Notes: generated by a model not told the origin, from the letters alone. 64,000 nt of DNA from Methanobacteriota archaeon (GCA_963719035.1 CAVRAO010000012.1:224001-288000), one strand, 5' to 3'; counted from the first letter of the stretch, positions 38,926-61,679 are shown. Made by a program: numbers and translations.

Positions 38926-38975
38926 AAGACGGGGAGCAATGGCTTTCGAAGATGTCACGTTTTGCTTCCAAATGG

Positions 38976-39626: not shown

Positions 39627-39764
39627 ACTCTTGCATCTCCCTTATAGCGATTTAACCGTTTGTTTATACGAACGCGTATCCGAACATTGACTCAAACTCA
39701 TACGCCGTGTGTACCGACACTATCAAAGTCCGACAACGTGATTGAGGGGCTTAGTATCAGTCTA

Positions 39765-40505
39765 TTATTCTTGAATTTCGTGAGCCGAAAAGCCTTTCCT
39801 GATTACCCTGTGGCTGCCGTCACAAAAAGGTTTATTCGAAGAGCTGCCACATCGGCATAGGGTGACGCGATTGCGAATTTCGTAAGTCGTTCCATTCGCT
39901 GCTTCTATTGGGATACATCCGCGGACCCAGAGAGGACCGCTATATCCTCTCAGCGGCTCCTCGACCACTGCGATGGAGGGTTCAAACTCAGGCTCAATGG
40001 GTTTTCCAGTTTTTTTATCAAACGCCACTAGGCGACCTGAGTTGCAGTTCGCCACTTCTTCGATGGCAATACGTCGCGCCTCGGGATTATCTGAATGTAA
40101 AGTCAGCTCGCGAATGCCGCCGGCGCGATTACACATGCCCACGTGTGAGCAAAGGTCCCGAACATCATTCAGAATGAGCCCTGGCCCATCTACCTCTCCG
40201 GCGTGAGAGAGATACGGCTCCCTACTAGCGGTCTCCGTGCCACCGAAATGCACTTCTTCGTGAGTGTCGTCGCAAAAAGGTTTGTCTTTGGACTGCCCGC
40301 AGCGACATAACGAATACGCGTCCTGCAAGGGGTAACGTTTGCTCACGTGGTAATCGTAAGGGTAATCATCGGCATCATTTGCAACTGTGAGTTCGAGCAG
40401 AGGAATAGCGCCCGAAACGTTATAAGGGCCGTCTTTGCACACCTTAATATTGCGTTTGTCATTGACCTTCTCTCTTGTGCGTTCTTTTTCACTTGCCATA
40501 ATCAC
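39765..40505 (-). CDS. CDGSH iron-sulfur domain protein (two CDGSH motifs around a divergent Fe-S domain)
   Basis: LCRCGQSKDKPFCDDTH and LCRCGSSSNKPFCDGSH. Confidence 0.92.
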   Translation of the reverse strand: MIMASEKERTREKVNDKRNIKVCKDGPYNVSGAIPLLELTVANDADDYPYDYHVSKRYPLQDAYSLCRCGQSKDKPFCDDTHEEVHFGGTETASREPYLSHAGEVDGPGLILNDVRDLCSHVGMCNRAGGIRELTLHSDNPEARRIAIEEVANCNSGRLVAFDKKTGKPIEPEFEPSIAVVEEPLRGYSGPLWVRGCIPIEAANGTTYEIRNRVTLCRCGSSSNKPFCDGSHRVIRKGFSAHEIQE

Positions 40506-44571: not shown

Positions 44572-44860
44572 CAGTTATCACAATGTACATTGTATTAAGC
44601 AATAGGTGTAGGTGCGCTTTAACAACAATAGAGGAGCTAAACACCGTTTTTTGAGCGTTACAGCGCCACAATTCAATGCCTTAATAGCATCGAACTTAGT
44701 TGCCAAGTTCCTCACCTTTTGACCTGTTCTCGAAACCAAGATGGTTCCACCTTGCTCCAGCATGTTCAAACTTACTACTTTTAAAGTGATTACCTTAAAC
44801 CTTGTGATGCCTGATTTTGACAATATTGACTTATTCTATCCTAATAAATTCGCTTGTAGA
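44572..44860. repeat. Duplicated ~290-bp upstream region (copy of 46610-46899)
   Basis: Near-identical sequence by eye, including the last codons of the MFS gene. Confidence 0.92.
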
Positions 44861-46609: not shown

Positions 46610-46899
46610 CAGTCATCACAATGTACGTGGACTAAGCAATAGGTATAGGTGAGCTTTGACAACCATAGAGGGGTTAAACACGGTTTTTTGAGCGTTAAAG
46701 CGCCACAATTCGATGTCTCAGTAGCATCGAACTTAGTTGCCAAGTTCCTCACCTTTTGACCTGTTCTCGAAACCAAAATGGTTTCACCTTGCTCTAGCAT
46801 GTTCAAACTTACTACTTCTAAGGTGATTGCCTTAAACCTTGTGATGCCTGATTTTGGCAATATTGACTTATTCTATCCTAATACATTCGCTTGTAGAAT
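46610..46899. repeat. Second copy of the ~290-bp TrmB upstream region
   Basis: Matches 44572-44860. Confidence 0.92.
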
Positions 46900-48125: not shown

Positions 48126-48337
48126 CGCTGGTATAACTCCTCGTCAAACGGGTGAAACCACACAGCATTGATAAGCGATATAAATGTTGCGTTCGCGTGC
48201 TTTGGCTATTCACGCGTTCTGAAATTAGGAAAAAATGCCGGGAAACTCGCGGGCTTGGAATAGCTGAGGCGCAACAGATATCAGCATTCAAAAGTCAAAA
48301 GAGGGTAATCATTCAGACTGAAGACGGGCACTCATCA

Positions 48338-49791
48338 ATGACGAACGGGCAAACGTCGCGGAAGCTTAACCTCTTTGACGTGACGAATCTGGTCATTGGC
48401 GGCACCCTAGGCGCGGACATATACATCGTTGCCTCGTTGAACAGCGCTTATCTTGGGCCTGCTAGTTTGCTCGTGTGGCTTGTTGGGGGTACAATCGCCA
48501 TAATCCTAGCGTTAAACTTCGCAGAAGCTGCCGCGCTCGTGCCTCGAGTAGGGAGATCGTTTGCCTACGTACGTGAAGCGTGGGGAGATTTTTCTGGTTT
48601 TATGGTGGGCTGCCCTCTGGATTGCCTAGATTGCTGCACTCGCCGTCACGCCCGGCACGTTCGTCCGCTATTTAGCCAATTTTGTCCCTTCGCTGAGTTT
48701 TGCTCAGGGTGTGATCATCAAGATCCTCTTTGTTGTCATTATCGCCTACATGAACGTGCGCGGCGCTAAGGAGGCGGGGCGCGCCAATGACGTCCTTACC
48801 ATGGCAAAATTGAGTCCGCTCCTCCTGCTGATCGTCGCTGGATTCGTCTATCTGACGTTAAATCCAGGAACCGCCGCTTCGAACCTTTTACCGTTTGCCC
48901 CGCTCGGCTTCGGCAATTTCGGGCAGGCGCTGATTCTCGTCGTGTGGGCGTACGCCGGTTTTGAGCTAGCCGTCATCCCATCCGGCGAAGTTGAAAACCC
49001 GACAAAGACCGTCCCAAAGGTGATGATAATCGGCATGGCTATTGTGATATTCTTCTACGTCCTCACGAACTTCGTCGTGCTCGCGACGGTGAACTGGACG
49101 GTGCTGCAAACTGATATCACTCCGCTTGCGACAGCGGGGAGCGTCGTCCTATCGTACACGCCGACGCTTGCACTCATTGGCGGTGCCGTGCTCGGAATCG
49201 GAGCACTTATTTCGATTTCTGGGTTTGATGAATCCGGCACACTGTCGACCTCACGATTATCCTATGCAATCTCGCTTGAAGGCTTATTCCCGAAGTTCCT
49301 CAGTCGTCTCCACCCTCGGTTCGGCACCCCCTATTACGCAATCATCGCACAGTCTGTCATCGCGCTCATCGCGTCGTTGGTCGGCGGTCATCACCCAACT
49401 CATCGTGTTCTCAACGTTCAATCTCGCGTTCGTCTATCTTGCCACGAGTGCGGCGGTTCTCACGTTGCGGGAGCGAAAGAAGCAAGTGGCAAGTGAACGC
49501 ACGTACCTTGAGCGGTTTACTGGCCCGGTCATTCCTATTGCGGGCATCATCTTAAGCACGTTTCTCATTTACGAGTGTGGGATTACCGCCGTGGCACTCG
49601 GCGTTGCGTCGATTCTGATAGGTATACCAATCTATGTCCTTTACGCGCCGCGTACCGAGATGGTGACGCTCAAGAAAGATTTCTATTCCACTGAAGCGAT
49701 CCTTGCGCGCAGCGCGCGGACCGAGAAGGTGTTTTTGGGTTACGTGGTGCGGTTGATACGGAAGGCGTTAGCACGTCGATCGAAAACGTAA
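48338..49791 (+). CDS. APC-family amino acid permease with two frameshifts
   Basis: IGGTLGADIY, AYVREAWG, WAYAGFE, SRLSYAI...LHPRFGTP over three ORFs. Confidence 0.85.
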
Positions 49792-50318
49792 AGGATCCGG
49801 CGGTGGCCAAAAGAGAGAGCCTCGGTGGTTAATCAGTATTACGCGCCTTCTTTCTTCTATCCCCCCTCCAAGTCGTAAGAAAAAAGTGAATATCCTATGC
49901 GTGCCCGTGTGGCAATCTGCGAACGTGTATTTACCTACTCCCAACGATGGCAGAAGAACGGGCATGTCGTGCTCCTTAAGCTCACAAAGAGCCTAAGCCG
50001 GTGCTGTGATTTGCACCATTTATAATAGGAATAACTGACTGCTTTTTCTGTCAACACACCACGGATACTCGCTGCTAGAACAAGTTGGGCAGACGCCGGC
50101 TTGGTCGCTTCAAAATTTGGAAAGTTCGTCCTTGTGCTGCATCTGAACACCCGTGGTGCCGTGCAGATGGACAAACCGATCAATTCCTTGATTGCGCTTG
50201 CGTTTACCTTATGAGCCGTTCGACCTTCGACAAATGGAATTAAAAATGGGGTCTAATTGATAAAAGAAGGAAATATTGGCCTTATTTGACAACGAAATCT
50301 TGATTTATTATTAAACAT

Positions 50319-51333
50319 ATGTGGCTTATTAGAGGTATGGATATGGTCGATCAGACTTTAAAGGCTGAACAGCAACGCAAAGCTGCGGAAGCACTGCACA
50401 GGCTCCGAAGCCAGGCAAGTACTCCATTGGGACCGAACGTTACAATCAAACCCTCTGGGTCGGTTGGAAGGATACCTTTAGAAATGGGTGAACTTGCGGC
50501 CGAACATTACCGTTCTGCTGAGGGCTACGATCCAAACTTCCTCGGCGCTGAACACCAGCTTGAACTTCCTAAACTGGCACCTGACCTCCAGCCCAAGGTG
50601 GCACAGCTCAAGAACGGAGGCGAAGTTCTCACTTACCATCACTTCTCGATTGTCATGAATGCCGAACGGCGACTCGCGTTTCATACCGCCGTAAATGTCG
50701 ATGGTCGGCAATTGGAGCACGTAGAGCGTGATCGTGATAAGTGGTACTTCGATCTGCGTCTTGATGAACGGCTCCAGGCGGGGCCAGACCTATACTCCAA
50801 CAATCCACTTGACTGTGGTCATCTGGTCCGTAGGCTCGATCCCTGTTGGGGATCAATAGCAGTTGCTGCGGGCGAAGACACCTTCCACTTTACGAACTGC
50901 TCACCCCAGCATTCTAAGCTCAATCAGCGTGATTGGCTTGAGATTGAAAGTTACGTCCTCAATACCGCAGACAACGCAGATGTACGTATCTCGGTGTTCA
51001 CAGGTCCCGTCTTCCGCGACGATGACATGCTCTATCGCGATGAATACCTGTTGCCTGCAGATTTTTGGAAGGTAGTAGCGTTCATCAATAAGAATGGCCA
51101 GCTTCGAGCTACTGCCTATGTGCGAACCCAGAAGAACTACCTTGAAAGTCTCAAGTTCTTCGATGACGAGTACCAAGACATGGCAGGTGCCAGTAGCACA
51201 GGTCGAAGCGCTCACAGGCCTATCTTTCGGGATACCGCAGGACGCTGACCCATTGACAAGGGTGGGGGTTAGCCGAGAAAGTCACAGACGCAATATCCGA
51301 CAAATTAGATCCGCGCACGATATCCTGTTGTGA
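50319..51333 (+). CDS. DNA/RNA non-specific endonuclease (NucA/EndoG His-Me finger), frameshifted near the C-terminus
   Basis: GYDPNFLG, YHHFSIVMN, LDCGHLVRRLDP (DRGH motif with R changed to C), TFHFTNCSPQH..LN, WLEIE, TGPVF, FWKV; tail WQVPVAQVEALTGLSF in the next frame. Confidence 0.88.
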
Positions 51334-51518
51334 CCATGATCGAGTCCTCTTCAAACCTTAGCGGCTGCGTCTAATATAATACTCCATCGTGCACCGTGGC
51401 AGATACGCGTTGGTAGCCTTGCAAGCAATGAGGTCGTGTGGGGCAACCTAATAGTCGGATAGCTGTAACCTGTTTTTGTAGGAAGGAGCTAGTATTTTTC
51501 TGCTGTGAATCTCCAGGA

Positions 51519-52349
51519 TTATAAGATAGACATATCTCTCTGTGTAGGTTCGCTCTCTAGCTGAGGCACTTGGGTATACTTATCTTTCTTCAAATCGGCT
51601 ATTACCTTCGTCAACAGCTCTTTTCGGGAGAGCTTGTTCTGGGTCGCATTCATCGCTTTGACCAAATAATAGGTAAAGGCCCCATGCCATGTTCCATCAA
51701 TTTTTGCATCAGCGCTGGTCTGATCTGCCCTGCAACCGGCCCACAATATCTGATCAGTTACTCCGGATTCTAGCATTGCGCGATAGAATCCACGTGGACG
51801 CTTTCCATCGACTTTTTCGAAGGCAGCCAGCGATGGGGGAGGTAGATAACGTGGCTTACGATCCAATAGGAGATCAATTGCCTTTAGACCCGTCCCGCTA
51901 TGACAGGTATCGAGGAAAACCTCTAACGATACATTGCTGGGAAGCTGAACGAACAGGTCGTGCAGCTCATCATCTACAATTATATGTGCATGGTCCCACT
52001 CGCCGTCCTTTTCGGCTAGATCATTCGGGCAGAATGCCTCATCCGCTCTGTCAGGTTCATCTCCTTCTTTATCAGGTACCTGAGTGCCGTGACTCGACAT
52101 GCTAAGGACAAGAGATGCATATGTGCCTGCTTTTGCGCCAGCAACCATATCATTAAGATTTTTCATGATATTTGCCTTTGTGGCTTGACTGTCGGTCAAC
52201 TCAACGACATCCGCAGCGGTGTATCCCAGATACTTTGTCAGCGCTGATTTCATATCTTGAACATCATTCACACATCCCTGTAACGCGGCCGAGGGATAGT
52301 TCTGGTATTGATTTATTCCAACACAAAGCGCTCGTCTACCGTTTGGCAT
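51519..52349 (-). CDS. Caspase-like (C14, ortho/metacaspase) cysteine protease
   Basis: RALCVGINQY, LQGCVND, SSHGTQ (His), DTCHSG (Cys), GCRADQTSAD, GAFTYYL, QVPQL. Confidence 0.93.
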   Translation of the reverse strand: MPNGRRALCVGINQYQNYPSAALQGCVNDVQDMKSALTKYLGYTAADVVELTDSQATKANIMKNLNDMVAGAKAGTYASLVLSMSSHGTQVPDKEGDEPDRADEAFCPNDLAEKDGEWDHAHIIVDDELHDLFVQLPSNVSLEVFLDTCHSGTGLKAIDLLLDRKPRYLPPPSLAAFEKVDGKRPRGFYRAMLESGVTDQILWAGCRADQTSADAKIDGTWHGAFTYYLVKAMNATQNKLSRKELLTKVIADLKKDKYTQVPQLESEPTQRDMSIL

Positions 52350-52398
52350 AGTTAACCTCCTGACTTGATTTTTTTTAAAAAGATCCTTTCAAGTTCCT

Positions 52399-53302
52399 TT
52401 ATTCCTTGAAATCGCCCAAGTTAATCCATTCTGCGTGAACAAGGGACCACCAATCGACGGCAAGCCCTTTTAAAACGTACTCATACGGAAGCCAGCCGTA
52501 CCCACCGTCGCCCCATTTGTCGCCCCAAGAGTTCCTGATTAGCAGCGCACCGGTCGTCTCCGTGTTGCAGGCGTTGTTGATCTTCATACCGTCATCATAG
52601 CCCACCGCGACGATGGCGTGGCCCCCCACCACCTGTTCTCTGGGACACGGCATGGGGATCTTTCCGTCGGCTTGTGCTTGTTTGATAGAGCTGTATACGG
52701 TAAAGCCGAACATCGCAGGGAGCTGTGTCGCTAAGGTCGTCTTGATACTTTCGAGCAGGACGTCCGCCGGCGTCGCAGGGGGGTCGAGACGGTAGTACCT
52801 TGATCGCATTATATTGCTGGCCAAAGGCGTAGAGGAAGGCAGGGGGTTCTACATCGAAATCAGGATCGTTATCCGTGTAGGGCCAGTACTCTTCGGGCGG
52901 AACGCCGAATAGGACGAGCGCTTTCATCGTTTCTCGCAGGTATCCACCGGTGTCCCCGGTCTCTTTCATAAGGTTTCTCGTCGCCTTGTAGAGAAAGAGA
53001 CGCGATGCGTCGATAAAAATGCCGTTCGCCTTGTTCTGGAAGTACTCAACGAGCCCAACGCCCGCATTGGCGGTGCACGAACCGAGCTGTCGTTGATTTT
53101 CAACGGGAGAGCACCATTGCCGCAAGTCGACCGTGGAAGGCAGAGCGGCTTTGGTCGATCTGAGTGCCCCGCCTTGCTTCAGGGTCTTATTGACTTCTGA
53201 CGTCTCGGGCGTATAATCGCGGAAATCGGGCAAGTCGCGACGCCATCCAAGACCATTGCCATCTATTGTGTTAGACAACATACTATTTTCCTCTTTTTTC
53301 AC
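52399..53302 (-). CDS. Papain-like C1A cysteine protease with one frameshift near 52810
   Basis: VDLRQWCSPVENQRQLGSCTANA, SRLFLY, GGHAIVAVGYDD, IRNSWGDKWGDGGYG; no signal peptide. Confidence 0.92.
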
Positions 53303-54008
53303 TTAAGTTCGGGTGTGTTTCAAACCAATGCTTCAATTTCGTGAGTCAGCCGTTTAACGCTGCAGATGACGGGCATGCGTAGCTGCTCAATCGAATTTCG
53401 TGAGCTGTTGTTGAGGTAGCTGAATGTGACTCTTTACCAAAGAGTCTATCAGAAAAACGCATACCAGGTTCAAAGGTGGCTTTGCTGCATTGAAGCATGA
53501 TTAATTTTATATTAGTACGATTTCGTAAGAATAACTATATCTAAATTACGTAAAGTTTAAATATTACATTGTTATTTAGATGCAATATTATAGTAACGTG
53601 GCAAAGCTGTATTACTTTGACAACTCGGGATGAACAAACGGATACATCTAGCTATATCGTATTTCCGCACACATTCTTGCAATCCTTGCTTCAAACATCT
53701 TATTTTGCGGTCTGAACAAAACTCGGGACATTAGGATAGAAGGATGGGACATGCTGTGCACATCTGCCCTTCTGTCGGCTATTGTGTCCCTCTGTTTAGC
53801 GGCGCATTTTCAGCAGATGACCCCTAGATCCTGCCGTCTTTAACAGAAGGTAGTGGCTGTTATATCCACTTTCAAAAGCGCGTCAAAACGCTGAATAAAC
53901 AAAATAAGGCAATATTGACGAGCTTTAGCAACACAAGATTTATCGCTGACGGCCGTGATACTTTATCACTTTACGAGAATTGTATGTGTAATTAAGTGAG
54001 GCAAGAGC

Positions 54009-54251
54009 ATGAATCAAGAACAGAAAGTCTTGTTAGTCTTTGGGCCGCCGCAATCTGGAACAAAATCTCTGGATCATCAATTTGACAACATTGAAGTCGC
54101 GCTCGAGGACTTCGCGAGCTACTTTAAAGGATTCAAGATCAAGACGATCGAATTGTCTGTTTCTGGGGCGGTTGAGTCAGGCGGATTTCTGAGGCTTTTT
54201 GTCAGTGGAAAGGCTGAAGCTGCGGCTACCGTCGTCCTGGAACCGATATAA
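54009..54251 (+). CDS. Small protein resembling peptidase co-occurring (Trypco/Pepco-like) domains
   Basis: Helix followed by GFKIKTIELSVSGAVESGGFLRLFVSGKAEAAATVVLEP, a long beta-hairpin pattern; divergent from the protease genes. Confidence 0.5.
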   Translation: MNQEQKVLLVFGPPQSGTKSLDHQFDNIEVALEDFASYFKGFKIKTIELSVSGAVESGGFLRLFVSGKAEAAATVVLEPI

Positions 54252-54423
54252 ACTGGTTATTCACTGAAGAATGCAAGCGAATACCACTTAAAAAGTGTCG
54301 CTAAAGTGAATGGAAGGTCATTGAGTCGCTGTTATCGGAATTCGCACGAGATAAAGCAACTTTTATCCCAAATAGACGTAAAGTAATTCGTTTAAAAAAC
54401 AGGCACCATAAAACGGTTGCATT

Positions 54424-55446
54424 ATGGCTCACGACGTATTCATAAGCTACGCTGCAGAAGACCGATCAGCCGCAGAGGCGGCCCGCGCCGCCCTTGAGGC
54501 ACAAGGCGTGAGCTGTTGGATCGCTCCTCGTGACGTGCTTCCTGGCGAAGACGAGACCGAGTCAATTCTTGCCGCCATCGACGCGAGCGGCGTCGTTGTT
54601 CTTTGCCTTAGTGCGGCTGCCAACGCGTCAAAACTCGTTACCCAGCAGGCGGCCCGCGCTTTTAACAAGAAGATCCCGATCGTTCCGTTAAGGATTGAGG
54701 AAGTTGCGCCAAGTGACGCACTTAGGCTCTTCTTTGGCACGGGTGAGGTCGTTGATGCATATGTGCCGCCACTTGAGAGCAAGCTGCAACGGGTAGTAGA
54801 AATCGTCACTCTGCTCTTGAGGCAGCCGAGGCAGAAAAAACAGGAAGCGGTGTCTGACGTAGTCAGTGCAAGTTCGGCTGACGAAGAGCTGGCGTGGCTC
54901 GAACCGTGGGCCCTCGCAAAAGGGGGCAAGCTGCAGAAAACTGCTTCACCGGTGGCTGGAGAGGACAGGCCCACTCGGAGAAAAGATCAGTCTGGTGGGA
55001 AAAGATCTATAGCGCCTGTGTTTTTAGTTGCGGGCGTCTTGATAATCGGCATAGTCATTGCGGCCGCTCTGGCATCTAATGTATCTCCTTCCGAGCTTAT
55101 TGCTTCCTTTTTGAAACAGGCGAAGCAGCTGCAAGAGCAGATTGAAACGCCGTCCTCCACACCAACGTCAACGGCCAGTTTGACAGTGCTGTACTTTCAA
55201 AGACCAGACTGTTCCCACTGCGTAGAACTAGAGAACACAGCCAGCTTTCAGCAGCTTCAAAAGGAAGTAACCGTGCAATCAGTAAGGACCGATCAAAGCC
55301 CGGCGACGCTCACAAACCAGTATGGAGTGACCGAAGTCCCAACGCTCATCTTGCTAAACAACGGGAAAGAAGTTGGTCGATGGGTCGGTCCTACCGATGC
55401 TTCTGCTATCAACGTAAAATTAGACAGCGTGCGCGTAGCGGGTTAG
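54424..55446 (+). CDS. TIR (catalytic E to Q) - single TM - thioredoxin-like domain protein
   Basis: HDVFISYA, CWIAPRD, IVPLRIE; basic stretch then TM VFLVAGVLIIGIVIAAALA; C-terminal DCSHC and GVTEVPTLILL...GRWVG. Confidence 0.88.
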   Translation: MAHDVFISYAAEDRSAAEAARAALEAQGVSCWIAPRDVLPGEDETESILAAIDASGVVVLCLSAAANASKLVTQQAARAFNKKIPIVPLRIEEVAPSDALRLFFGTGEVVDAYVPPLESKLQRVVEIVTLLLRQPRQKKQEAVSDVVSASSADEELAWLEPWALAKGGKLQKTASPVAGEDRPTRRKDQSGGKRSIAPVFLVAGVLIIGIVIAAALASNVSPSELIASFLKQAKQLQEQIETPSSTPTSTASLTVLYFQRPDCSHCVELENTASFQQLQKEVTVQSVRTDQSPATLTNQYGVTEVPTLILLNNGKEVGRWVGPTDASAINVKLDSVRVAG

Positions 55447-55466
55447 GGTCATAGCATGAGGGCGAA

Positions 55467-55557
55467 GAGCTGTTGGATCGCTCCTTGTGATGTGCTTCCT
55501 GGAAAAGACGAGACTGAGTCAATTCTTGCCGCCATCGACGCGAGCAGCGTCGTTGTG
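55467..55557 (+). repeat. 90-bp orphan fragment of the TIR coding sequence
   Basis: Near-identical to 54510-54599 and 57961-58050. Confidence 0.9.
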
Positions 55558-55601
55558 TGACGTACGTTGTGAGTTAGTTTTAGGGAGGGTAGGGGGATAG
55601 G

Positions 55602-56102
55602 TTAGATGCTCGTGGCCAGCAAATAAAGCGCTACGAAAAGCAACAGGGTGTACGGAACGGCGAATAGTTGTGGCACGTACCGCTCTATACGCGTCAAGGG
55701 TCGGTAAAGCCGAGAGTCTTTTCCCTTTCCAAGAACCTCCCACTCACGCGCATAAAAAGGAAACGCAAGGTTCTTTTCGACTTCGAAGATCACCTTAAAC
55801 TTGCCCGAGCTCAGCTGGCCGTGCGAACGAATGGTTACAAACCACATATAGCAGAGGAGCACGCCTAACATAGCGACCACAAATAAAACAGTGCTCTGAA
55901 TGGCGGTCGCGGTCTTTAGTGATACGACCGCTGCAAGAAGCGCGAGCAGTCCAGAGAGCAGCGATATGTAGAACTTGTTGGCATCCGCTCGGCGGTCGCT
56001 CACCTTGTCCGCCAGCTGGACGTAAAGCTTGTACTGATCGAGCAGCATGCCGACATTCGGATCGTGCTTCTCTTCTACCTTTTCCGTCACGTGCAGCTCC
56101 AT
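55602..56102 (-). CDS. Small multi-TM membrane protein (SLATT-like / RipA-family octameric membrane protein type)
   Basis: LLDQYKLYV..ADKVSDRR..ANKFY, two TM helices, W...I.S...L.SGKFKVI..E, third hydrophobic helix. Confidence 0.65.
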   Translation of the reverse strand: MELHVTEKVEEKHDPNVGMLLDQYKLYVQLADKVSDRRADANKFYISLLSGLLALLAAVVSLKTATAIQSTVLFVVAMLGVLLCYMWFVTIRSHGQLSSGKFKVIFEVEKNLAFPFYAREWEVLGKGKDSRLYRPLTRIERYVPQLFAVPYTLLLFVALYLLATSI

Positions 56103-56312
56103 GCGTGTTCCTAATTTATATGCTCAACGTCATCAAGCCATCACTTGCTACTGATTTGAACTAGTGTGGTCTTTTGACGCACGTTACGATGCTAAATATA
56201 GTCAATATTGCCATTTTTTGTCAATTAAACGTCTCCAGGGTGTCCTTTTAAGGAAACAACGAAAGGTATTACTATTGCCACAGCCAATATTTATGTTAAA
56301 ATTTGTGGGAAC

Positions 56313-57782
56313 ATGGCTCGCGACGTCTTTATCAGCTATTCGTACGACGACAAAGTGATCGCCGACAAGGTTTGCAGCGCGCTTGAGGGCGCTGGTATAC
56401 TCTGCTGGATCGCGCCACGCGATGAGCGACCCGGAGAGACGTGGGCGAGCAAGATCGTTCGGGCAATTGATGAGAGCCGCATAATGGTCCTCGTTCTCTC
56501 TGCGAGCTCGAACAAATCCAAGGACTGCACCAAAGAGGTCGCCATCGCCACCAGCGATGAAAAACTCATGCCGGTCATTCCACTGCGCATCGATGAGGTC
56601 AGCCTCACAGGTGACCTGAAGTACTACCTCGCGGGGATGCACCGGCTGGACGCCCTGCCGCCGCCGATTGATAACCATCTTGAGCGGCTTGTCGTCGACG
56701 TGCGGGATCTTCTCAATTCGGTGTCGTTATCGGAGGCTCAGTTAGAAAGCCCGAAAACCGATGCAATAAGCGCCAAAGTGCGTGACATGGACCTTGAACG
56801 GACGCAAGAGTGGATGGAAAAGGCAGAGAAGCTACGCGAGCTCGACCTTGATTCAGAGGCGCTCACGTGCTACGACAAAGCGCTCGCAAGCAATTCCGAA
56901 AACGCACCTGCGTTGAACGCGAAGGGGCTTATCCTCACCAAGCTTGATCGTCACGAGGAGGCCCTTCAATGTTTTGAGCAGTCGACTGAGGCTGATCCCG
57001 CATCGTTCGAGGCGTGGAAGAATAAAGGGATATGTCTCCAGGAACTCGGTCATTCTCATGAGGCGCTGGAGTGTTACGACCGAGCCCTTGATATCGAGCC
57101 ACTCGACGCAGGAGCGAGAGGGTTGAAATGTTCTGCCCTCCTTGACCTCAACGATGATAAAGCAGCGCTTACGTGCTGCGAAGCGGCGACGAAGATCGAT
57201 CCGACAAGCTTTTCCCACTGGTTTTTCACAGGGGTGTGTCTTGCCAAGCTCGGTCGTCACCAAGAGTCCCTCGAGAGCCTTGATAAGGCGATTGCCCTCA
57301 ACCCTCAAAACGCTGACGCCCTGTATCACAGAGGTGACGTTCTCGCGAAATGTGGCCGTCTCAAAGAGGCGATCGAGTCGTATGATCGAGTACTTCGCAT
57401 TGACCCCGATCACGTACAAGCCTGGTTTAATAAAGGCGTATGCCTTGCGAGCTTTGGGCGGCACAGCGAGGCCATCGACTGTTACGCGAAAGTGCGCACG
57501 ATCGACCCAGCACACCCGGATTTGCAGCAGCAGCGCTCTGCCTCAGAAAAAGCACTTGGCTTTGCTACGTTGTTAGATCGGGCGACTATGCTCACCAGGG
57601 TCAACCGCCACCGCGAGGCCATCGAATGTTACGACAAGGTTTTAGCAAGCGACCCCTATAACGCAGACGCGTGGTACAACAGGGGGCTCTCCTTCGCAAG
57701 CCTCGGCAACGCGAAAGAGGCTGCACGATGTTTTGACCGGTCTTTAGAACTCGCCTCAAATCACGCGAAAGCCGGGGTTTAA
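56313..57782 (+). CDS. TIR-TPR protein with intact catalytic glutamate
   Basis: DVFISYS, CWIAPRD, SKDCTKEVAIA (E75), then roughly nine TPR repeats (AW.NKG..L..LG...EA..CYD.AL..DP). Confidence 0.93.
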   Translation: MARDVFISYSYDDKVIADKVCSALEGAGILCWIAPRDERPGETWASKIVRAIDESRIMVLVLSASSNKSKDCTKEVAIATSDEKLMPVIPLRIDEVSLTGDLKYYLAGMHRLDALPPPIDNHLERLVVDVRDLLNSVSLSEAQLESPKTDAISAKVRDMDLERTQEWMEKAEKLRELDLDSEALTCYDKALASNSENAPALNAKGLILTKLDRHEEALQCFEQSTEADPASFEAWKNKGICLQELGHSHEALECYDRALDIEPLDAGARGLKCSALLDLNDDKAALTCCEAATKIDPTSFSHWFFTGVCLAKLGRHQESLESLDKAIALNPQNADALYHRGDVLAKCGRLKEAIESYDRVLRIDPDHVQAWFNKGVCLASFGRHSEAIDCYAKVRTIDPAHPDLQQQRSASEKALGFATLLDRATMLTRVNRHREAIECYDKVLASDPYNADAWYNRGLSFASLGNAKEAARCFDRSLELASNHAKAGV

Positions 57783-57874
57783 GGCCCTGGATGTTTCAAA
57801 GATAGCCGTTGAAACTCGCACGAAGTCGCAAAAGCTAAGAAGTAGATTAAGCGCACGATCGAACGGATGCACTT

Positions 57875-58669
57875 ATGGCTCACGACGTATTCATAAGCTA
57901 CGCTGCAGAAGACCGATCAGCTGCAGAGGCGGCCCGCGCCGCCCTTGAGGCACAGGACGTGAGCTGTTGGATCGCTCCTCGTGACGTGCTTCCTGGCGAA
58001 GACGAGACCGAGTCAATTCTTGCCGCTATCGACGCGAGCAGCGTCGTTGTCGTTTGCCTGAGTTCGGCTGCCAACGCGTCAAAACTCGTTACCCAACAAG
58101 CGGCCCGCGCTTTTAACAAGAGGATCCCGATCGTTCCGTTAAGGGTTGAGGACGTGGGGCCAAGCGAAGCGCTCAAGCTATTCTTAGGTGCTCAAGAGCC
58201 GGTTGATGCTTATACCCCTCCGCTCGAATCCCCTCTTGCCGCACTTGGTGTGGTTATTGGCTCGCTTTTGGCACAAACTGCAGCACCGGCCGCCGGAATA
58301 ATGTCTCCTCCCGGACTTCCCTACGAGGAGGGGACTCCTGCAGTACGCAAGCGACGAGGCGGCGCGCCGCCTCGTCGTGCCGGGGGGAAAGTGCTCATCA
58401 TCGCTGCCCTCGTTGCCCTTGCGATTATCGTTATCGCCGCGATATTCTTTTTGCTCCCGCAATCTCAGGTTCAGCTCATTGCAGTCTCGTCTGAGACTCC
58501 TGGGGAGTCTCCAAGCCCCACGGAAAAGCCTACCATCCTCCCTACGCAAGAGCCCTCTTTGGTCCCTACGCCCACGACCCCTACACCCACGACCCCTACG
58601 CCCACGACCCCTACGCCCACGACCCCTACACCCACGACCCCTACGCTCCCCCCCTACGGCGCTTGGTGA
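57875..58669 (+). CDS. TIR (catalytic E to Q) - single TM - Pro/Thr-rich stalk protein
   Basis: TIR nearly identical to that of 54424-55446; KRR..RR..K then TM VLIIAALVALAIIVIAAIFFLL; (PTPTT)n tail. Confidence 0.85.
   Translation: MAHDVFISYAAEDRSAAEAARAALEAQDVSCWIAPRDVLPGEDETESILAAIDASSVVVVCLSSAANASKLVTQQAARAFNKRIPIVPLRVEDVGPSEALKLFLGAQEPVDAYTPPLESPLAALGVVIGSLLAQTAAPAAGIMSPPGLPYEEGTPAVRKRRGGAPPRRAGGKVLIIAALVALAIIVIAAIFFLLPQSQVQLIAVSSETPGESPSPTEKPTILPTQEPSLVPTPTTPTPTTPTPTTPTPTTPTPTTPTLPPYGAW
58565..58645. repeat. 15-bp tandem repeat CCTACRCCCACGACC x5.4 (PTPTT)
   Basis: Directly visible in the sequence. Confidence 0.95.
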
Positions 58670-58950
58670 GTGTGACTCCTCGTGTGATCTCATAAAGACG
58701 AGGATCTTTCATGGCATCATAGATCCGATCGTACGCTACGGGTTAGCAGAAGAACAACAGCGTTTGATAACGCAGCTAAATGATCAAGCCTCAAAAAAGC
58801 GCTTAATTGACGAAAAAAAGGCAATATCGACAGTATTAGGCAAAGGAAGATTCATAACCTATTAGGCCTCAAAAGTAGGTGATTTCGAAAACGTGGCAGC
58901 ACAACGAGTGGCTGCCCGACGGCGAACGATTGACTCTTTGAGAGAAGGGA

Positions 58951-60267
58951 ATGGACGAGTCGTATTTCGTTGTTTCTGATGTTCATTTGGGTGCTAAGGA
59001 CTGCTGCAAGGAAGAGTTTGAGCACTTTTTGGAATGGCTCGCGAGCAGTTATAGTGGCGGCACGCTATCTGTCCAGACGCAACGGGGAAAACGTACGCTC
59101 GCCCCGCCAACCACGCTGATCTTGTTAGGTGACATGCTGGAGCTTTGGATCCCCCGCGAATACGAGCGAAGCAGCGTGCTGTGCGACAGCTCGTCTATCT
59201 TCAGCAAGCTCATCGATCTGAGCTGTAAGAAGGTGTATGTTCTCGGTAACCACGACGCCGATTTGTGCGATCACGAGTGCGAGAAAGACAGCCACCAGGA
59301 CAACTCGTTCCAAGCGCTTATAGAGTGGATTTGCGCCAATGATTCTCACTTCGAAGTGGTTCCGCGACACTATCCGAACTGTCCTGATGATGTACTCAAA
59401 CAACGGGTCCGACTGGGGGATAAGGACTACCTGTTCATTCATGGCCAGCAGTTTGACCGAGATTTTAAGACGAGCCGTGGACTTGTTCGGTTTGTTCCGT
59501 TTATGGCAGCAATTGCTTCGGCGTTCGACTTTTTTCCAAAGGCTGGACCGATCTTCTTTGTTCTTTCTCTCGCACTCATTGGGCTCTATGTCGTGGCAGC
59601 CGCCGCCTTACTCCTAATTGATCCCTTGTGGTTCCTTGTACTGTTAGTACTCGTCGGGTACCCGGGTTTTTCTTGGCTCATCGTGAGGCTTTTCAAACCG
59701 GCGTGGGAGTTCAAAAAAACGTTTTCTGCGGTTGTTGCCCTTACTGGTCGATCACAGGATGACGTCTTAAGCTCTCCTTGGGACGTCAATCGGAACATAA
59801 ACAGCCTCAAACACGCGCTTTACGAAATAAAGAAACAACAAGACCGCCCAAAGTACAGGAACATCAACAAAATCATAAGTGAGGGGTATTACCGCTTCGA
59901 CAAAGACGTTTCAAAGCCGGATGTTATCGTCTTTGGCCACACCCACGTGCCCGAAATATGTAATTCAATGCGCGTAGGTGATGATAACGGCAAGCCAGCT
60001 ATGCGACAGTTCGTGAACAGTGGCATGTGGATTCGGCCTGGTCAGCGACAAGAGCACAAGAGCGTACTGCAGAGTGGCGCACCTCTGTGCGAAGAGGACG
60101 AGGACAGTGCGAGGAATGAGGACGCTCTTTATAACACGTTCGTATACATTGACAACGAGGGGGCAACCCTCTGGCGGTGGTGTGACTTGGAACGAACGGC
60201 AAAAGAGATTCCTGCGTCAGACTGCTCATCCAGAACTGTCTCTTCGTCTACAACATCAACAAGTTAA
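58951..60267 (+). CDS. Calcineurin-like metallophosphoesterase with an internal two-TM insertion
   Basis: SDVHLG, LGD, GNHD, IHG, FGHTH and VNSG motifs; hydrophobic hairpin between HG and GHTH. Confidence 0.88.
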   Translation: MDESYFVVSDVHLGAKDCCKEEFEHFLEWLASSYSGGTLSVQTQRGKRTLAPPTTLILLGDMLELWIPREYERSSVLCDSSSIFSKLIDLSCKKVYVLGNHDADLCDHECEKDSHQDNSFQALIEWICANDSHFEVVPRHYPNCPDDVLKQRVRLGDKDYLFIHGQQFDRDFKTSRGLVRFVPFMAAIASAFDFFPKAGPIFFVLSLALIGLYVVAAAALLLIDPLWFLVLLVLVGYPGFSWLIVRLFKPAWEFKKTFSAVVALTGRSQDDVLSSPWDVNRNINSLKHALYEIKKQQDRPKYRNINKIISEGYYRFDKDVSKPDVIVFGHTHVPEICNSMRVGDDNGKPAMRQFVNSGMWIRPGQRQEHKSVLQSGAPLCEEDEDSARNEDALYNTFVYIDNEGATLWRWCDLERTAKEIPASDCSSRTVSSSTTSTS

Positions 60268-60489
60268 CCAACGCACGTTAAGACGCTATAAACCTTCCAA
60301 ATAGAACGAGGGTGCTGTTCAGAATCGACGTTACGCGCCTGCGTATACATAAGCGGACATTGCCTGCTTAATATTGTCGCGACCGTGCGATTAAAAACGC
60401 TCGCGAAGGTCTGTATCATAAAGGCGGCAAGCGCGAAGATACTTTTGTACTCGCCGAGTTTACCGCGGGATAATGTGAAGTAGCGTTAC

Positions 60490-60650
60490 ATGTGGCAATC
60501 GGCGAACGTGCAGCTACCGATGCCAGATTGCGGCTTATCTAGGTGGGTGCGCGACTACGTTCAGGAACTGCTCACCTTCCCCAATGACGTTAACGACGAC
60601 CAGGTCGACGCGACAACGCAAGCGCTGAATCAGCTGCGAGGAACGATATT
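60490..60650 (+). pseudogene. Fragment of a phage terminase large subunit (C-terminal nuclease end)
   Basis: WVRDYVQELLTFPNDVNDDQVDATTQAL matches the FP...HDDQVDA.SQAL end of terminases. Confidence 0.7.
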
Positions 60651-61189
60651 TCCAGAATCCAAAGAATGTGTGGTTTCCTCTGTGCAGGCAAGGCCTTTAG
60701 CAGCTGATATTACGCCAAGGGGTGGATCCCAGCACGCCTCGATGACAAGAGCCCGCTCCTGGTCTACGACGTTCTTAACGTGGCGTACTGCGTGATCGGA
60801 AGCAAACGATGCTATCGCCACAGCTTACCGCATACGTAGCATTTGTGATCCCCTTCATGGTCGGCGTCTAAACCGCATGCACCGCTACACATACTTTGGG
60901 GACACGGTGCTAAGCAAAAGTGCGACGTCATCTTTTCGGGCGGTTGTTCTTGCTCGCTCATTTATGATCACCCCTTTCCTGTTAATCTACTTAAAACAGC
61001 TGAATAAGGACTTGAGCATTGCTCTTTTGCCTTATCTAACGCTTATAGTCCATGTCCTATCCTGCTACTCCGTTCCACCGCCGAGCAGGAACCAAGATAG
61101 ATGTCAAACATCTCAACCGCGCCGGCGTCTTTGACAGGGAAGGGAGAGCCATGTCCAAGTGTGAGGTTAATGTCCTATCTGGTGGTGAG

Positions 61190-61609
61190 CTATGCCATCT
61201 TCGTCCCGGCCTCCACAGAGGCGCCCTCGTTCCAGACCTCGACCGGTGTGAAGGTCCAGACGCCCTGGACGGTCAGACCCATAACCTTGAACTTCTCGGA
61301 CATGGCATCAAACATCGGACCAGAGGTGACGAAGTCCCCCACCGTGCATCTGATCTCAAAGGACTTGGAGCCCTCGAGGACCAGCAACGAGGCGGTTTTA
61401 CCGTCTTTCTTCATCGCTTCAAGGTTCTTTGCGGTCCTCTTCATAAAAATGTCAGCGGCGACGATCATCTCGTTCGATGGCGCATTGATGCTTCCGACAT
61501 GAATCGCGTGTGGAGCTCCATCCGCGTCGACGGTTGCGATGATCTTAGCGTTCTTCTGGTTGTTGATCACTTCTACTACTTCATCAGGCATCTTGACCAC
61601 AATTTTCAC
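61190..61609 (-). CDS. Pyridoxamine 5'-phosphate oxidase-like protein
   Basis: IATVDADGAPH, ADIFMKRTAKNL. Confidence 0.85.
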   Translation of the reverse strand: MKIVVKMPDEVVEVINNQKNAKIIATVDADGAPHAIHVGSINAPSNEMIVAADIFMKRTAKNLEAMKKDGKTASLLVLEGSKSFEIRCTVGDFVTSGPMFDAMSEKFKVMGLTVQGVWTFTPVEVWNEGASVEAGTKMA

Positions 61610-61679
61610 CCAGTCGGCAATGTTCGTTTACAATACGTAAATAGTTGCCTGACTGCCCTTCCCTCCTTTTCGGAAGGCC

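What the first reader, a model, noticed from the sequence alone, without database searches (positions are those of the whole stretch)
50319..60267. Candidate new archaeal immune/signalling island: TIR sensors with caspase, papain protease, nuclease, putative pore protein and phosphoesterase
Seen in the sequence: nine consecutive genes, all of conflict-system type, around an AT-rich divergent intergenic region (53303-54008). One arm carries the C1A protease and caspase, converging on a NucA-type nuclease. The other carries a Trypco/Pepco-like protein, TIR-TM-thioredoxin, an antisense multi-TM protein, TIR-TPR, TIR-TM-PT and a TM-metallophosphoesterase. Established: prokaryotic TIRs cleave NAD+ or make ADPR-derived signals; type IV Thoeris couples a TIR to a caspase-like effector; TPRs act as sensors; small TM proteins and His-Me nucleases are common death effectors. 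Inference: one multi-input pathway in which TPR or membrane receptors trigger TIR signalling, then a protease cascade, nuclease or membrane effector, with the phosphoesterase turning over the signal. I know of no described system with this composition.
Basis: partly seen in the sequence, partly recalled or inferred. Interest (0 to 1): 0.9.

Follow-up and report, generated by a model that had tools for sequence, protein, structure and literature searches.

The report
Composite archaeal TIR and protease island
A 10.6-kb insertable gene cassette in an uncultured archaeon bundles a TIR-plus-membrane-protein module of the Thoeris kind with a separate protease-based module, so it looks like a defence island built from recurring parts rather than one new nine-gene immune pathway.

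Summary
The nine genes and their domains are real. They form a 10,583-bp cassette between 28-nt direct repeats. It lies inside a ~21-kb region missing from two same-genus genomes. One metagenome contig shows the junction without the cassette.

The set does not recur. Caspase, nuclease and the 80-aa protein were found in 0 of 23 other family genomes. The full order appears only on a 91.5%-identical contig.

Three sub-modules do recur separately:
- **8xMP with TIR.** The PF24838 (8xMP/RipA) membrane protein has a TIR gene upstream in 28-40 of 71 loci. The block 8xMP/TIR-TPR/TIR-TM also sits at another site in genome G010.
- **Caspase with papain.** They share 16 of 80 loci.
- **Papain with the membrane metallophosphoesterase.** They are neighbours in two genus genomes.

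Other findings:
- The nuclease's relatives are trypsin-nuclease fusions.
- Only TIR-TPR keeps the catalytic Glu; both membrane TIRs carry Gln, conserved across their clade.
- The caspase lacks the type IV Thoeris C-terminal domain.
- A shared palindromic upstream element hints at co-regulation.

Verdict: a composite defence island, a new variant of known kinds. All function is inferred.

The parts
49908..49935 (.). Left 28-nt direct repeat bounding the cassette. It copies the first bases of the terminase-fragment ORF at 60490.
   Evidence: family D6, 86% over 28 nt, spacing 10,583; alignment. The 20 nt just left of it (49888-49907) are joined directly to 60491 in one contig of run X9.
50262..50304 (+). 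Copy 1 (67% to the reference copy) of a 43-nt upstream element, ahead of the nuclease gene.
   Evidence: family D5; (AAGGAAATATTGGC, 2 mismatches).
50319..51248 (+). NucA-type non-specific endonuclease (DCGH motif). There is no TM or signal-like hydrophobic peak. The C-terminus is frameshifted in this assembly by an extra G at 51173; the reading frame continues to about 51333.
   Evidence: Pfam 3.4e-43; motif. The extra base is absent in L106 and in contigs of X1, X5, X9 and X10. Phylum homologues are Trypsin_2 + Endonuclease_NS fusions.
51519..52349 (-). Stand-alone caspase-family protease (276 aa; His in SHG at 86, Cys in DTCHSG at 147) with no extra domain.
   Evidence: Pfam Peptidase_C14 covers residues 5-269. 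PADLOC caspase model matched only on profile positions 5-158 of 453. 80 metagenome loci at 63-93% identity.
52399..53302 (-). Papain-family (C1) cysteine protease with Cys (GSC), His (GGH) and Asn (NSWG) present. It is split into two frames here by an extra G at 52798.
   Evidence: Pfam on both halves. Single frame of 307 aa in L106 and in G010. The base is absent in four runs.
53901..53943 (+). Reference copy of the 43-nt upstream element with the exact palindrome GGCAATATTGAC, in the AT-rich divergent intergenic region.
54009..54251 (+). 80-aa beta-rich protein of a rare family (38 representatives at E<=0.001); weakly Trypco1/Pepco-like.
   Evidence: Pfam Trypco1 in 6 of 37 and Pepco in 3 of 37 relatives, best E 0.0095. 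hhalign against Trypco1: probability 12.8%, P 0.0023. AF2 pLDDT 69, six strands.
54424..55446 (+). N-terminal TIR with Gln75 in place of the catalytic Glu, one TM (199-217) and a C-terminal thioredoxin with CSHC, predicted to lie outside the cell by the positive-inside rule. Its first 300 nt are 94% identical to those of the TIR-TM-PT gene.
   Evidence: (D1). The fusion is seen only in 2 close homologues of the 120 listed.
55467..55556 (+). 90-nt remnant of a third copy of the Gln-type TIR gene, a scar of rearrangement.
   Evidence: family D2 (93% identity).
55602..56102 (-). PF24838 8xMP ('RipA family octameric membrane protein') with three hydrophobic helices; the candidate membrane effector.
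   Evidence: Pfam 136 bits against a cut-off of 30. Single copy above cut-off in the genome. AF2 pLDDT 81 with three long helices; hydropathy. A TIR gene lies upstream in 28-40 of 71 loci.
56190..56232 (-). Inverted copy of the 43-nt element (GTCAATATTGCC) between the divergent 8xMP and TIR-TPR genes.
   Evidence: I1.
56313..57782 (+). TIR-TPR: TIR with the catalytic Glu75 intact plus about 7 TPR repeats, and no TM. It is the only TIR here expected to be enzymatic.
   Evidence: Glu aligned to the Glu of a TIR-STING chain. Glu75 is invariant in a 46-sequence alignment. 71-87% identical orthologue next to 8xMP in G010.
57875..58669 (+). TIR (Gln75) with one TM (173-191) and a Pro/Thr-rich tail (five TPTTP units).
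   Evidence: (D3). 62% identical orthologue after TIR-TPR in G010.
58813..58855 (+). Copy of the 43-nt upstream element (GGCAATATCGAC) ahead of the phosphoesterase gene.
58951..60267 (+). Metallophosphoesterase with all motifs (DVH, GD, GNHD, GHTH) and a two-helix membrane hairpin (205-245) inserted between them.
   Evidence: Homologues in 19 of 401 phylum genomes, own included. Next to a papain gene in G011:C134 and G014:C157.
60490..60795 (+). Fragment of a terminase large subunit (C-terminal part). Its first 28 nt form the right direct repeat (60491-60518).
   Evidence: PHROGs 8.4e-8. Related DNA is multi-copy in genus genomes.

Best explanation
The finding is a 10.6-kb insertable defence cassette made of at least two modules that recur independently elsewhere.

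**Module A (Thoeris-like).** TIR-TPR is the only TIR with the catalytic Glu. It is inferred to sense a trigger through its TPR array and to convert NAD+ into an ADP-ribose-derived signal. The divergently transcribed 8xMP/RipA-family three-helix membrane protein is inferred to be the ring-forming effector that damages the membrane. The membrane-anchored TIRs with Gln at the catalytic position cannot be ordinary NADases. One has a Pro/Thr-rich tail and the other a recent thioredoxin fusion. They are inferred to act as non-catalytic partners: an anchor, a regulator or a decoy.

**Module B (protease-based).** A caspase-papain pair is inferred to license latent effectors by cleavage. There are three candidate substrates:
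- the small Pepco/Trypco-like protein;
- the membrane metallophosphoesterase, which sits next to papain in relatives;
- the NucA nuclease, whose relatives are fused to a trypsin-like protease.

**Shown:** domain content, catalytic residues, recurrence of the sub-modules, cassette boundaries and the presence/absence polymorphism. **Inferred:** every biochemical step and the defence role itself.
For: **Cassette**
- 28-nt direct repeats lie 10,583 bp apart.
- The flanking anchors are 221 bp apart in G017 and about 1 kb apart in G010, against about 21.4 kb here.
- One X9 contig joins 49888-49907 directly to 60491.

**Module A**
- Of 71 upstream neighbours of 8xMP homologues from bacteria and archaea, 28 match ThsB_TIR and 12 match TIR_2. 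Most are co-directional and abutting.
- G010 carries 8xMP/TIR-TPR/TIR-TM at 76% nucleotide identity at a different chromosomal site, and a second divergent 8xMP/TIR pair.
- Glu75 is invariant in 46 aligned TIRs including TIR-TPR.
- Gln75 is found in 14 of 123 sequences. Thirteen of them form a clade at 70% identity or more to the window's membrane TIRs.
- TIR paired with a small oligomeric membrane effector is an experimentally validated Thoeris layout (types V and VII).
- Islands with several ThsB genes and several effectors are described.
- The genome's other TIR genes are a TIR-PsbP next to a weak SLATT_1-like protein and a TIR-NACHT.

**Module B**
- A papain homologue lies on 16 of 80 caspase loci. 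Peptidase_C1 is the commonest family among 121 flanking genes, with 10.
- Papain and the phosphoesterase are adjacent in G011:C134 and G014:C157.
- The 7 phylum homologues of the nuclease lie in 597-678-aa frames. The 2 of 2 tested are Trypsin_2 + Endonuclease_NS.
- A preprint shows Pepco (also called Trypco1/2) to be a protease-activated pore. It lists a metallophosphoesterase-like enzyme among protease-associated proteins.

**Separateness**
- Caspase, nuclease and the 80-aa protein are each in 0 of 23 other family genomes.
- TIR is on 2 of 80 caspase loci.
Against: - Nothing is tested biochemically.
- The whole cassette moves as one piece. It also carries a shared 43-nt upstream element with a 12-bp palindrome ahead of the nuclease, the 80-aa gene, 8xMP/TIR-TPR and the phosphoesterase. 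Variants lie about 250 nt upstream of two TrmB-family regulator genes nearby. There are 7 matches against 0.47 expected in the window, and 3 of the genome's 6 exact sites are here. This could mean coordinated use.
- 8xMP homologues have a caspase upstream in 6 of 71 loci, so cross-talk between the modules is conceivable.
- The neighbour counts rest on my crude longest-ORF gene calls. Seven of 80 loci were dropped because no 8xMP ORF was called, and two had no upstream gene.
- 10 of 71 neighbours are P-type ATPases in one clade. 8xMP is therefore not always in a defence context.
- Here 8xMP and TIR-TPR are divergent, not operonic.
- The caspase family mostly sits among housekeeping-like genes, so its defence role is uncertain.
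- The 80-aa protein's Pepco likeness is weak, and it lacks the cleavable C-terminal tail described for Pepco.
- PADLOC recognises no system here.
Confidence: 0.6

Rival explanations
1. One integrated multi-input pathway. TPR and membrane TIR receptors trigger TIR signalling, which activates the caspase/papain cascade, the nuclease and the membrane effector. The phosphoesterase degrades the signal.
For: - The nine genes form one repeat-flanked cassette that is present or absent as a unit.
- The same order is seen on contig L106.
- A shared palindromic upstream element lies at four promoters in the cassette.
- Type IV Thoeris couples a TIR to a caspase-like effector (listing).
- 8xMP homologues sit behind a caspase in 6 of 71 loci.
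Against: - The set is not conserved. Caspase, nuclease and the 80-aa protein are in 0 of 23 other family genomes.
- L106 is 91.5% identical DNA, so it is not an independent instance.
- G010 keeps only the 8xMP/TIR-TPR/TIR-TM block, and without the palindrome.
- The caspase has no domain that could receive a nucleotide signal.
- Only 2 of 80 caspase loci hold a TIR.
- The phosphoesterase travels with papain, not with TIR.
Confidence: 0.15
2. Not an antiviral system. The TIR, TPR, caspase and thioredoxin proteins serve envelope or stress signalling, or regulated cell death in the organism's own physiology. They merely sit in a variable region.
For: - This TIR family's N-terminal domain is fused to very many unrelated C-terminal domains, among them Sel1, SH3, RDD, FGE, WD40 and kinases.
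- The caspase family is highly conserved (63-72% identity) and mostly flanked by housekeeping-like genes such as inositol-1-phosphate synthase and carboxylase subunits.
- 8xMP lies behind P-type ATPases in 10 of 71 loci.
- PADLOC finds no system.
Against: - The cassette is strain-specific, repeat-flanked and adjacent to a terminase fragment.
- The G010 counterpart lies among a DNA methylase, a PLD-family protein, a ResIII helicase and a Trypco1 gene.
- The TIR-8xMP pairing across phyla fits the validated Thoeris layout.
Confidence: 0.15
3. A decaying remnant: a degraded provirus or island whose genes are being lost and no longer act.
For: - Frameshifts occur in papain and the nuclease in this assembly, with a split amino-acid permease nearby.
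- There is a TIR gene fragment at 55467-55556, and the TIR-thioredoxin fusion is a recent chimera.
- A terminase fragment sits at the edge.
- The membrane TIRs have lost the catalytic Glu.
Against: - Both frameshift bases are absent from contigs of all four runs laid and from L106, so they look like assembly errors or private variants.
- All catalytic motifs are intact.
- The Gln-type TIR clade is conserved at 70-95% identity over at least 10 further clusters, which argues for selection.
Confidence: 0.1

Closest known systems
Thoeris types V and VII (ThsB TIR with ThsF/DUF2270 or ThsH/SLATT membrane effectors); bioRxiv 10.64898/2025.12.03.692087. I read the abstract, sections 5, 6, 8 and 9, and passages. 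Figures and tables were not available.
   Same: A TIR gene next to a small multi-helix membrane protein predicted to form rings. The pairing is widespread across phyla, and several TIRs and effectors can share one island.
   Different: - The effector belongs to another family (PF24838). It has no Pfam SLATT or DUF2270 hit, and hhalign against a DUF2270 alignment gives 4% probability.
- The TIR carries a TPR array and is divergent from the effector gene.
- Catalytically Glu-less membrane TIRs accompany the pair.
- The host is an archaeon.
- I could not establish whether PF24838 is among that paper's 29 putative types (Figure 1C, Table S1). A search for '3TM' found nothing in the text.
Type IV Thoeris (TIR with a caspase-like effector activated by N7-cADPR); bioRxiv 10.1101/2024.10.24.620036. 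I saw the abstract in a search listing and one Discussion passage.
   Same: TIR genes and a caspase-family protease lie in one island.
   Different: - The effector there has a C-terminal domain thought to bind the signal. This caspase is a bare 276-aa C14 domain.
- It is not in an operon with a TIR.
- Its relatives rarely neighbour a TIR (2 of 80 loci).
Protease-effector modules (Pepco = Trypco1/2, EACC1, MBL, alpha/beta hydrolase, MPE-like); bioRxiv 10.1101/2025.11.14.688446. I read the abstract, sections 4 and 8, and passages.
   Same: Cysteine proteases sit beside a small beta-rich protein, a metallophosphoesterase and a nuclease. The logic would be latent effectors licensed by cleavage.
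   Different: - The proteases here carry no sensor domain (no STAND or similar).
- A papain-family enzyme is involved; the term 'papain' occurs 0 times in that text.
- The 80-aa protein is only marginally Pepco-like and has no C-terminal tail.
- The phosphoesterase has a membrane hairpin.
Trypsin_2 + Endonuclease_NS fusion proteins of related archaea (loci L236-L242)
   Same: The nuclease domain is 53-68% identical to the one here.
   Different: The window's gene corresponds to the C-terminal half only. Its protease neighbours are cysteine proteases encoded separately.

Membership tests
Thoeris (generic: signal-making TIR with an adjacent effector) | TIR-domain protein with the catalytic glutamate | tested here: met
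   TIR-TPR has Glu75. It aligns to the Glu of a TIR-STING chain and is invariant in a 46-sequence alignment.
Thoeris (generic: signal-making TIR with an adjacent effector) | Adjacent gene family recurrently linked to TIR genes | tested here: met
   Of 71 upstream neighbours of 8xMP homologues, 28 match ThsB_TIR and 12 match TIR_2; the overlap is not resolved. G010 has two further 8xMP/TIR pairs.
Thoeris (generic: signal-making TIR with an adjacent effector) | Effector belongs to a validated Thoeris effector family | tested here: not met
   There is no SLATT, DUF2270, DUF6650, Macro, SIR2 or SLOG hit on 8xMP. hhalign against DUF2270 gives 4% probability. The families of ThsJ, ThsK and ThsL could not be read from the text.
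Thoeris (generic: signal-making TIR with an adjacent effector) | Infection-triggered ADPR-derived signal and phage defence | not testable with these tools
   This needs biochemistry and a host-virus system.
Type IV Thoeris | Caspase-like effector with a C-terminal signal-binding domain | tested here: not met
   The protein is 276 aa and Peptidase_C14 covers residues 5-269. The PADLOC caspase model matched only on profile positions 5-158 of 453. The feature is taken from the passage.
Type IV Thoeris | Caspase gene adjacent to, and co-occurring with, a TIR gene | tested here: not met
   The caspase is on the opposite strand, about 2 kb from the nearest TIR and across a 706-bp intergenic region. 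A TIR was found on 2 of 80 related caspase loci, L106 and L121.
PF24838 8xMP / RipA family | Pfam model above its gathering score, with a three-helix membrane architecture | tested here: met
   136.3 bits against a cut-off of 30. Three hydrophobic segments. AF2 gives three long helices. The octameric state was not tested.
Pepco / Trypco1 | Sequence membership | tested here: inconclusive
   The 80-aa protein has no Pfam hit. Among 37 relatives, 6 hit Trypco1 (best E 0.0095) and 3 hit Pepco. hhalign gives 12.8% probability, P 0.0023.
Pepco / Trypco1 | Cleavable, unstructured C-terminal tail after the barrel strands | tested here: not met
   The last predicted strand spans residues 73-79 of 80. 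Relatives end 0-10 residues after the conserved LKP motif.
Pepco / Trypco1 | Recurrent adjacency to a protease gene | tested here: inconclusive
   The gene is divergent from papain here and in L106. A profile of the family found no other copy in the 80 caspase loci or in the genome. The genomic context of the other 36 relatives could not be fetched.
Enzymatic TIR (NADase/cyclase), applied to the two membrane TIRs | Catalytic glutamate | tested here: not met
   Gln75 sits in the motif VTQQA, where 109 of 123 aligned sequences have Glu. The Trp of the PGxxW motif is also replaced.

The most novel reading that the evidence does not exclude
The conserved three-gene unit is 8xMP, a Glu-bearing TIR-TPR and a membrane-anchored TIR that has lost the catalytic Glu. 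It could work as a receptor/adaptor TIR heteromer, in which a non-enzymatic membrane TIR scaffolds or gates an enzymatic, TPR-sensing TIR. That would be Toll-pathway-like adaptor logic in an archaeon, feeding an experimentally untested Thoeris effector family. In this strain the unit would also be wired, through a shared palindromic operator, to a caspase/papain module that licenses a pore-like protein, a membrane phosphoesterase and a nuclease.
Probability: 0.12. Interest if true: 0.8.

Novelty: new variant of a known kind. Interest (0 to 1): 0.5.

Why it matters
- **An untested effector family.** If Module A works as inferred, it adds an archaeal example of TIR signalling to a membrane effector family (PF24838) that no paper I could find has tested. 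I searched '8xMP', 'octameric membrane protein', 'RipA'+octamer, 'RipA'+Francisella+cryo-EM and 'RipA'+TIR+anti-phage and found nothing relevant.
- **Non-catalytic TIRs.** The module includes a conserved clade of Glu-less membrane TIRs. That is a natural case for asking what non-catalytic TIRs do in prokaryotes.
- **New protease links.** The caspase-papain pairing, the papain-phosphoesterase pairing and the trypsin-nuclease fusions extend the catalogue of protease-linked effectors to archaea and to a papain-family enzyme.
- **A warning about gene order.** A striking run of immune-type genes can be a mosaic in a hotspot rather than a pathway.

Tried and rejected
- **Complex prediction.** TIR-TPR's TIR domain with the Gln-type TIR domain gave 'no answer' (score 0.00). 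This is no evidence either way.
- **Fold search.** The 8xMP model against the PDB gave no match at E<=0.001. A PDB sequence search gave only a designed protein at E 0.019.
- **Protein atlas.** The nearest named cluster is PycTM at 0.76, below the level that counts.
- **Profile comparison.** hhalign of 8xMP against DUF2270 (4%) and against the genome's SLATT-like protein (0.3%) found no relationship.
- **Literature.** Searches for 8xMP/RipA returned nothing relevant; 'RIPA' buffer swamps the term.
- **Earlier-agent claim.** Earlier notes say a 2025 preprint lists 'TIR + 3TM'. I could not verify this in the held text; figures and supplements are not available.
- **Other scans.**
  - Rfam over 39000-64000 gave no family.
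  - The sigma-70 and terminator scan is not informative for an archaeon.
  - Folding the multi-copy element at 51340-51520 gave z = +1.79, so it is not structured.
- **Palindrome elsewhere.** Genes next to the three other exact palindrome sites gave only a TrmB-like fragment 1.8 kb from one site. The palindrome is absent from G010's 8xMP locus.
- **Nuclease origin.** I dropped the idea that the nuclease arose by internal deletion of the trypsin domain. The N-terminus aligns to the linker of the fusions.
- **GGTAC idea.** I did not pursue the idea that all frameshifts fall at GGTAC. It fits the two checked sites, but the permease breaks were not located.
- **Expression.** No RNA holder is listed for the stretch.
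- **Weak joint.** A joint in X9 (54777 to 58234, depth 2, side 24) is too weak to use.

Full report
**Observation.**
The ORF list and Pfam confirm the nine genes:
- NucA-type endonuclease, 50319-51248 (+).
- Caspase, 51519-52349 (-).
- Papain-family protease, 52399-53302 (-), in two frames here.
- 80-aa protein, 54009-54251 (+), with no Pfam hit.
- TIR-TM-thioredoxin, 54424-55446 (+).
- PF24838 '8xMP' membrane protein, 55602-56102 (-).
- TIR-TPR, 56313-57782 (+).
- TIR-TM with a Pro/Thr tail, 57875-58669 (+).
- Metallophosphoesterase with a membrane hairpin, 58951-60267 (+).

Hydropathy and catalytic motifs agree with these calls. The divergent intergenic region is AT-rich, with 37.8% G+C at 53500-53999. 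Three of the genome's five TIR_2 matches lie here. PADLOC gives only weak single-domain hits and no system. NCBIfam gives nothing above its cut-offs.

**The cassette and its setting.**
- The window is part of a 2.19-Mb, 13-contig archaeal genome.
- Window 38945-39774 and 61174-61651 match DNA that lies 221 bp apart in the same-genus genome G017 and about 1 kb apart in G010. About 21 kb here is therefore strain-specific.
- That region also holds two TrmB-family regulators, an MFS transporter and a split amino-acid permease.
- Within it, the nine genes are bracketed by 28-nt direct repeats at 49908-49935 and 60491-60518 (24 of 28 identical, 10,583 bp apart).
- The right repeat is the start of a terminase large-subunit fragment.
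- I laid Logan contigs of four runs on 49800-60600. One X9 contig carries, just before 60491, twenty letters identical to 49888-49907. That is the junction expected when the cassette is absent. It rests on a single contig.
- X1, X5 and X9 cover all 30 bins of the stretch. X1 and X5 may be the source sample.

**Frameshifts.**
The window was compared with L106, a 4,963-bp metagenome contig that is 91.5% identical and has the same gene order. Relative to L106, the window has one extra G at 52798 (papain) and one at 51173 (nuclease C-terminus), both just before GTAC. Contigs of all four runs lack these bases (table 4). Both genes are therefore most likely intact in nature.

**Does the set recur?**
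It does not.
- Protein searches of the 23 other genomes of the family found the caspase, the nuclease and the 80-aa protein in none of them. Many of these genomes are incomplete (59-91%).
- A DNA search of 40 relatives found only one large shared block. Window 55611-58518 (8xMP, TIR-TPR and most of TIR-TM) is 76% identical to G010:C1:479117-482001.
- That position is far from the syntenic site at about 1.325 Mb.
- L106 repeats the order, but it is near-identical DNA and so not an independent instance.

**Module A: 8xMP with TIR.**
- G010 has 8xMP (-), TIR-TPR (+), TIR-TM (+) and a papain paralogue (-) in a row. It also has a second divergent 8xMP/TIR pair 24 kb away.
- Around these lie a DNA methylase, a PLD-family protein, a Trypco1 gene, a papain orthologue and a ResIII helicase.
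- 8xMP has at least 122 homologues at E<=1e-5. One bears NCBI's name 'RipA family octameric membrane protein'.
- An alignment-based scan of genome contigs returned 80 loci from many bacterial and archaeal phyla.
- My longest-ORF gene calls recovered the 8xMP gene in 73 of the 80 loci and an upstream neighbour in 71. Most neighbours are co-directional and overlap or abut the 8xMP gene.
- Pfam on those 71 neighbours gave ThsB_TIR in 28, TIR_2 in 12, Peptidase_C14 in 6 and P-type ATPase domains in 10. The ATPase cases are loci labelled Poribacteria, probably clade synteny. The tool does not report the overlap between the two TIR models, so TIR neighbours number between 28 and 40.
- The AF2 model of 8xMP (pLDDT 81) has three long helices.
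- No solved structure resembles the model. No profile link to DUF2270 was found.

The Yirmiya et al. preprint (I read sections 5, 6, 8 and 9) validates TIR with DUF2270 (type V) and TIR with SLATT (type VII). It predicts ring-like membrane assemblies for both. It also describes islands holding up to seven ThsB genes and several effectors. Earlier notes of this scan report TIR + 8xMP pairs in three other genomes, which agrees with my count.

**The TIR domains differ.**
- TIR-TPR has Glu75. It aligns with the Glu of a TIR-STING chain and is invariant in 46 aligned TIRs.
- In a set of 123 N-terminal TIRs, 109 have Glu and 14 have Gln at that position.
- Thirteen of the 14 are the window's two membrane TIRs and a clade at 70% identity or more, which includes G010's orthologue. 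The remaining one, at 50% identity, may be an alignment offset.
- The Trp of the PGxxW motif is also lost in this clade.
- The first 300 nt of the two membrane TIR genes are 94% identical, and a 90-nt third fragment lies at 55467-55556.
- The TIR-TM-thioredoxin fusion is found only in two close homologues among the 120 listed.

I therefore read the thioredoxin fusion as a recent chimera, and TIR-TM with the Pro/Thr tail as the conserved partner.

**Module B: the proteases and their candidate effectors.**
- The caspase has many relatives at 63-93% identity (80 loci kept of 177 confirmed).
- A papain homologue lies on 16 of the 80 loci. A TIR lies on 2, the nuclease on 1 and the 80-aa protein on 1. 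Many of these contigs are short.
- Among 121 flanking genes, Peptidase_C1 is the commonest family with 10. The rest look like ordinary metabolism.
- The phosphoesterase has homologues in 19 of 401 phylum genomes, own included. It lies next to a papain gene in G011:C134 and within 1.5 kb of one in G014:C157.
- Seven phylum genomes hold homologues of the nuclease, all in 597-678-aa open frames. The two I scanned are Trypsin_2 + Endonuclease_NS fusions. The window's gene matches their C-terminal half.
- The 80-aa protein belongs to a rare family of 38 representatives with a conserved beta-rich C-terminal core.
- Its link to Trypco1/Pepco is weak, and it lacks the C-terminal tail.

[quoted passage not shown] It lists a metallophosphoesterase-like enzyme among protease-associated proteins. 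These observations make 'protease-licensed effectors' the best available reading, but no step is shown.

**Type IV Thoeris is not the model for the caspase.**
That effector carries a C-terminal domain proposed to bind N7-cADPR. Here Peptidase_C14 fills residues 5-269 of 276.

**A possible link between the modules.**
- A 43-nt element recurs in the same orientation upstream of the nuclease, the 80-aa gene and the phosphoesterase. It also occurs, inverted, in the 8xMP/TIR-TPR intergenic region.
- Its core is the palindrome GKCAATATTGMC.
- A 14-mer version has 7 matches in the window against 0.47 expected, all between 44819 and 58831.
- The exact 12-mer occurs at 6 sites in the genome, 3 of them here.
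- With one mismatch allowed there are 39 sites, 5 of them here, against 15 for a reversed control.
- Two sites lie about 250 nt upstream of the two TrmB-family genes.
- The motif also occurs in other genus genomes next to unrelated genes. It is absent from G010's 8xMP locus.

I take this as a hint of local co-regulation, not proof of one pathway.

**Verdict.**
- The 'single nine-gene pathway' reading is not supported.
- The best reading (0.6) is a mobile, composite defence island with a Thoeris-like TIR/8xMP module and a protease-based module.
- The most interesting new element is the conserved Glu-less membrane TIR that travels with an active TIR-TPR and 8xMP.
- Supplements and figures that I could not see may already list the TIR + 8xMP configuration.

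Noticed in passing
window 50262-50304, 53901-53943, 56190-56232 (inverted), 58813-58855; also 44819-44832 and 46854-46869: A 43-nt upstream element with the 12-bp palindrome GKCAATATTGMC lies ahead of four cassette genes. It also lies about 250 nt upstream of two TrmB-family regulator genes. Three of the genome's 6 exact sites are here. This is a candidate operator.
   Followed up: partly
window 49908-49935 and 60491-60518; 60490-60795: 28-nt direct repeats bracket the nine genes. The right one starts a terminase large-subunit fragment whose DNA is multi-copy in genus genomes (4 matches in G017). One X9 contig shows the empty-site junction.
   Followed up: partly
window 51382-51516: A ~135-nt element lies between the nuclease and caspase genes. 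It matches many places in genus genomes at 70-84% identity and two other places in this genome. It has no Rfam hit and no stable fold on the + strand.
   Followed up: partly
window 51173 and 52798: Each site has one extra G before GTAC that breaks the nuclease and papain frames. Both bases are absent from four runs' contigs and from L106. They may be systematic assembly errors at one sequence context.
   Followed up: partly
window 48152-49791: An amino-acid permease is split over three overlapping ORFs (Pfam AA_permease_2 and AA_permease_C on separate pieces). The break points were not located.
   Followed up: no
L233 (G000:C6:113000-123000) 3411-5836; L234 (G000:C12:115000-126000) 3026-5885: The genome's other TIR genes are a TIR-PsbP protein directly after a 409-aa protein with a weak SLATT_1 hit (E 1.3e-4, below cut-off), and a TIR-NACHT protein beside a TPR protein.
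   Followed up: partly
L236-L242 (phylum genomes): These are about 600-680-aa proteins that fuse a trypsin-like protease to a NucA-type endonuclease. The nuclease domain is 53-68% identical to the window's nuclease.
   Followed up: partly
L020, L024, L065 and other loci: 8xMP homologues have a caspase-family gene directly upstream (6 of 71 neighbours), so this membrane protein pairs with either a TIR or a caspase. In 10 loci labelled Poribacteria, the upstream gene is instead a heavy-metal P-type ATPase.
   Followed up: no
L009/L010 (G010:C1:470000-505000): G010's counterpart region holds an N6/N4 DNA methylase, a 563-aa PLD-family protein, a true Trypco1 gene, two papain genes, a ResIII helicase and two 8xMP/TIR pairs. 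This looks like a second defence island. G010's TIR-TPR shows a frame break near codon 90.
   Followed up: partly
window 39775-61173: This ~21-kb stretch is absent between the same anchor genes in G017 and G010. Its other genes (CDGSH iron-sulfur protein, flavin reductase, TrmB x2, MFS, permease) have paralogues scattered around G010.
   Followed up: partly
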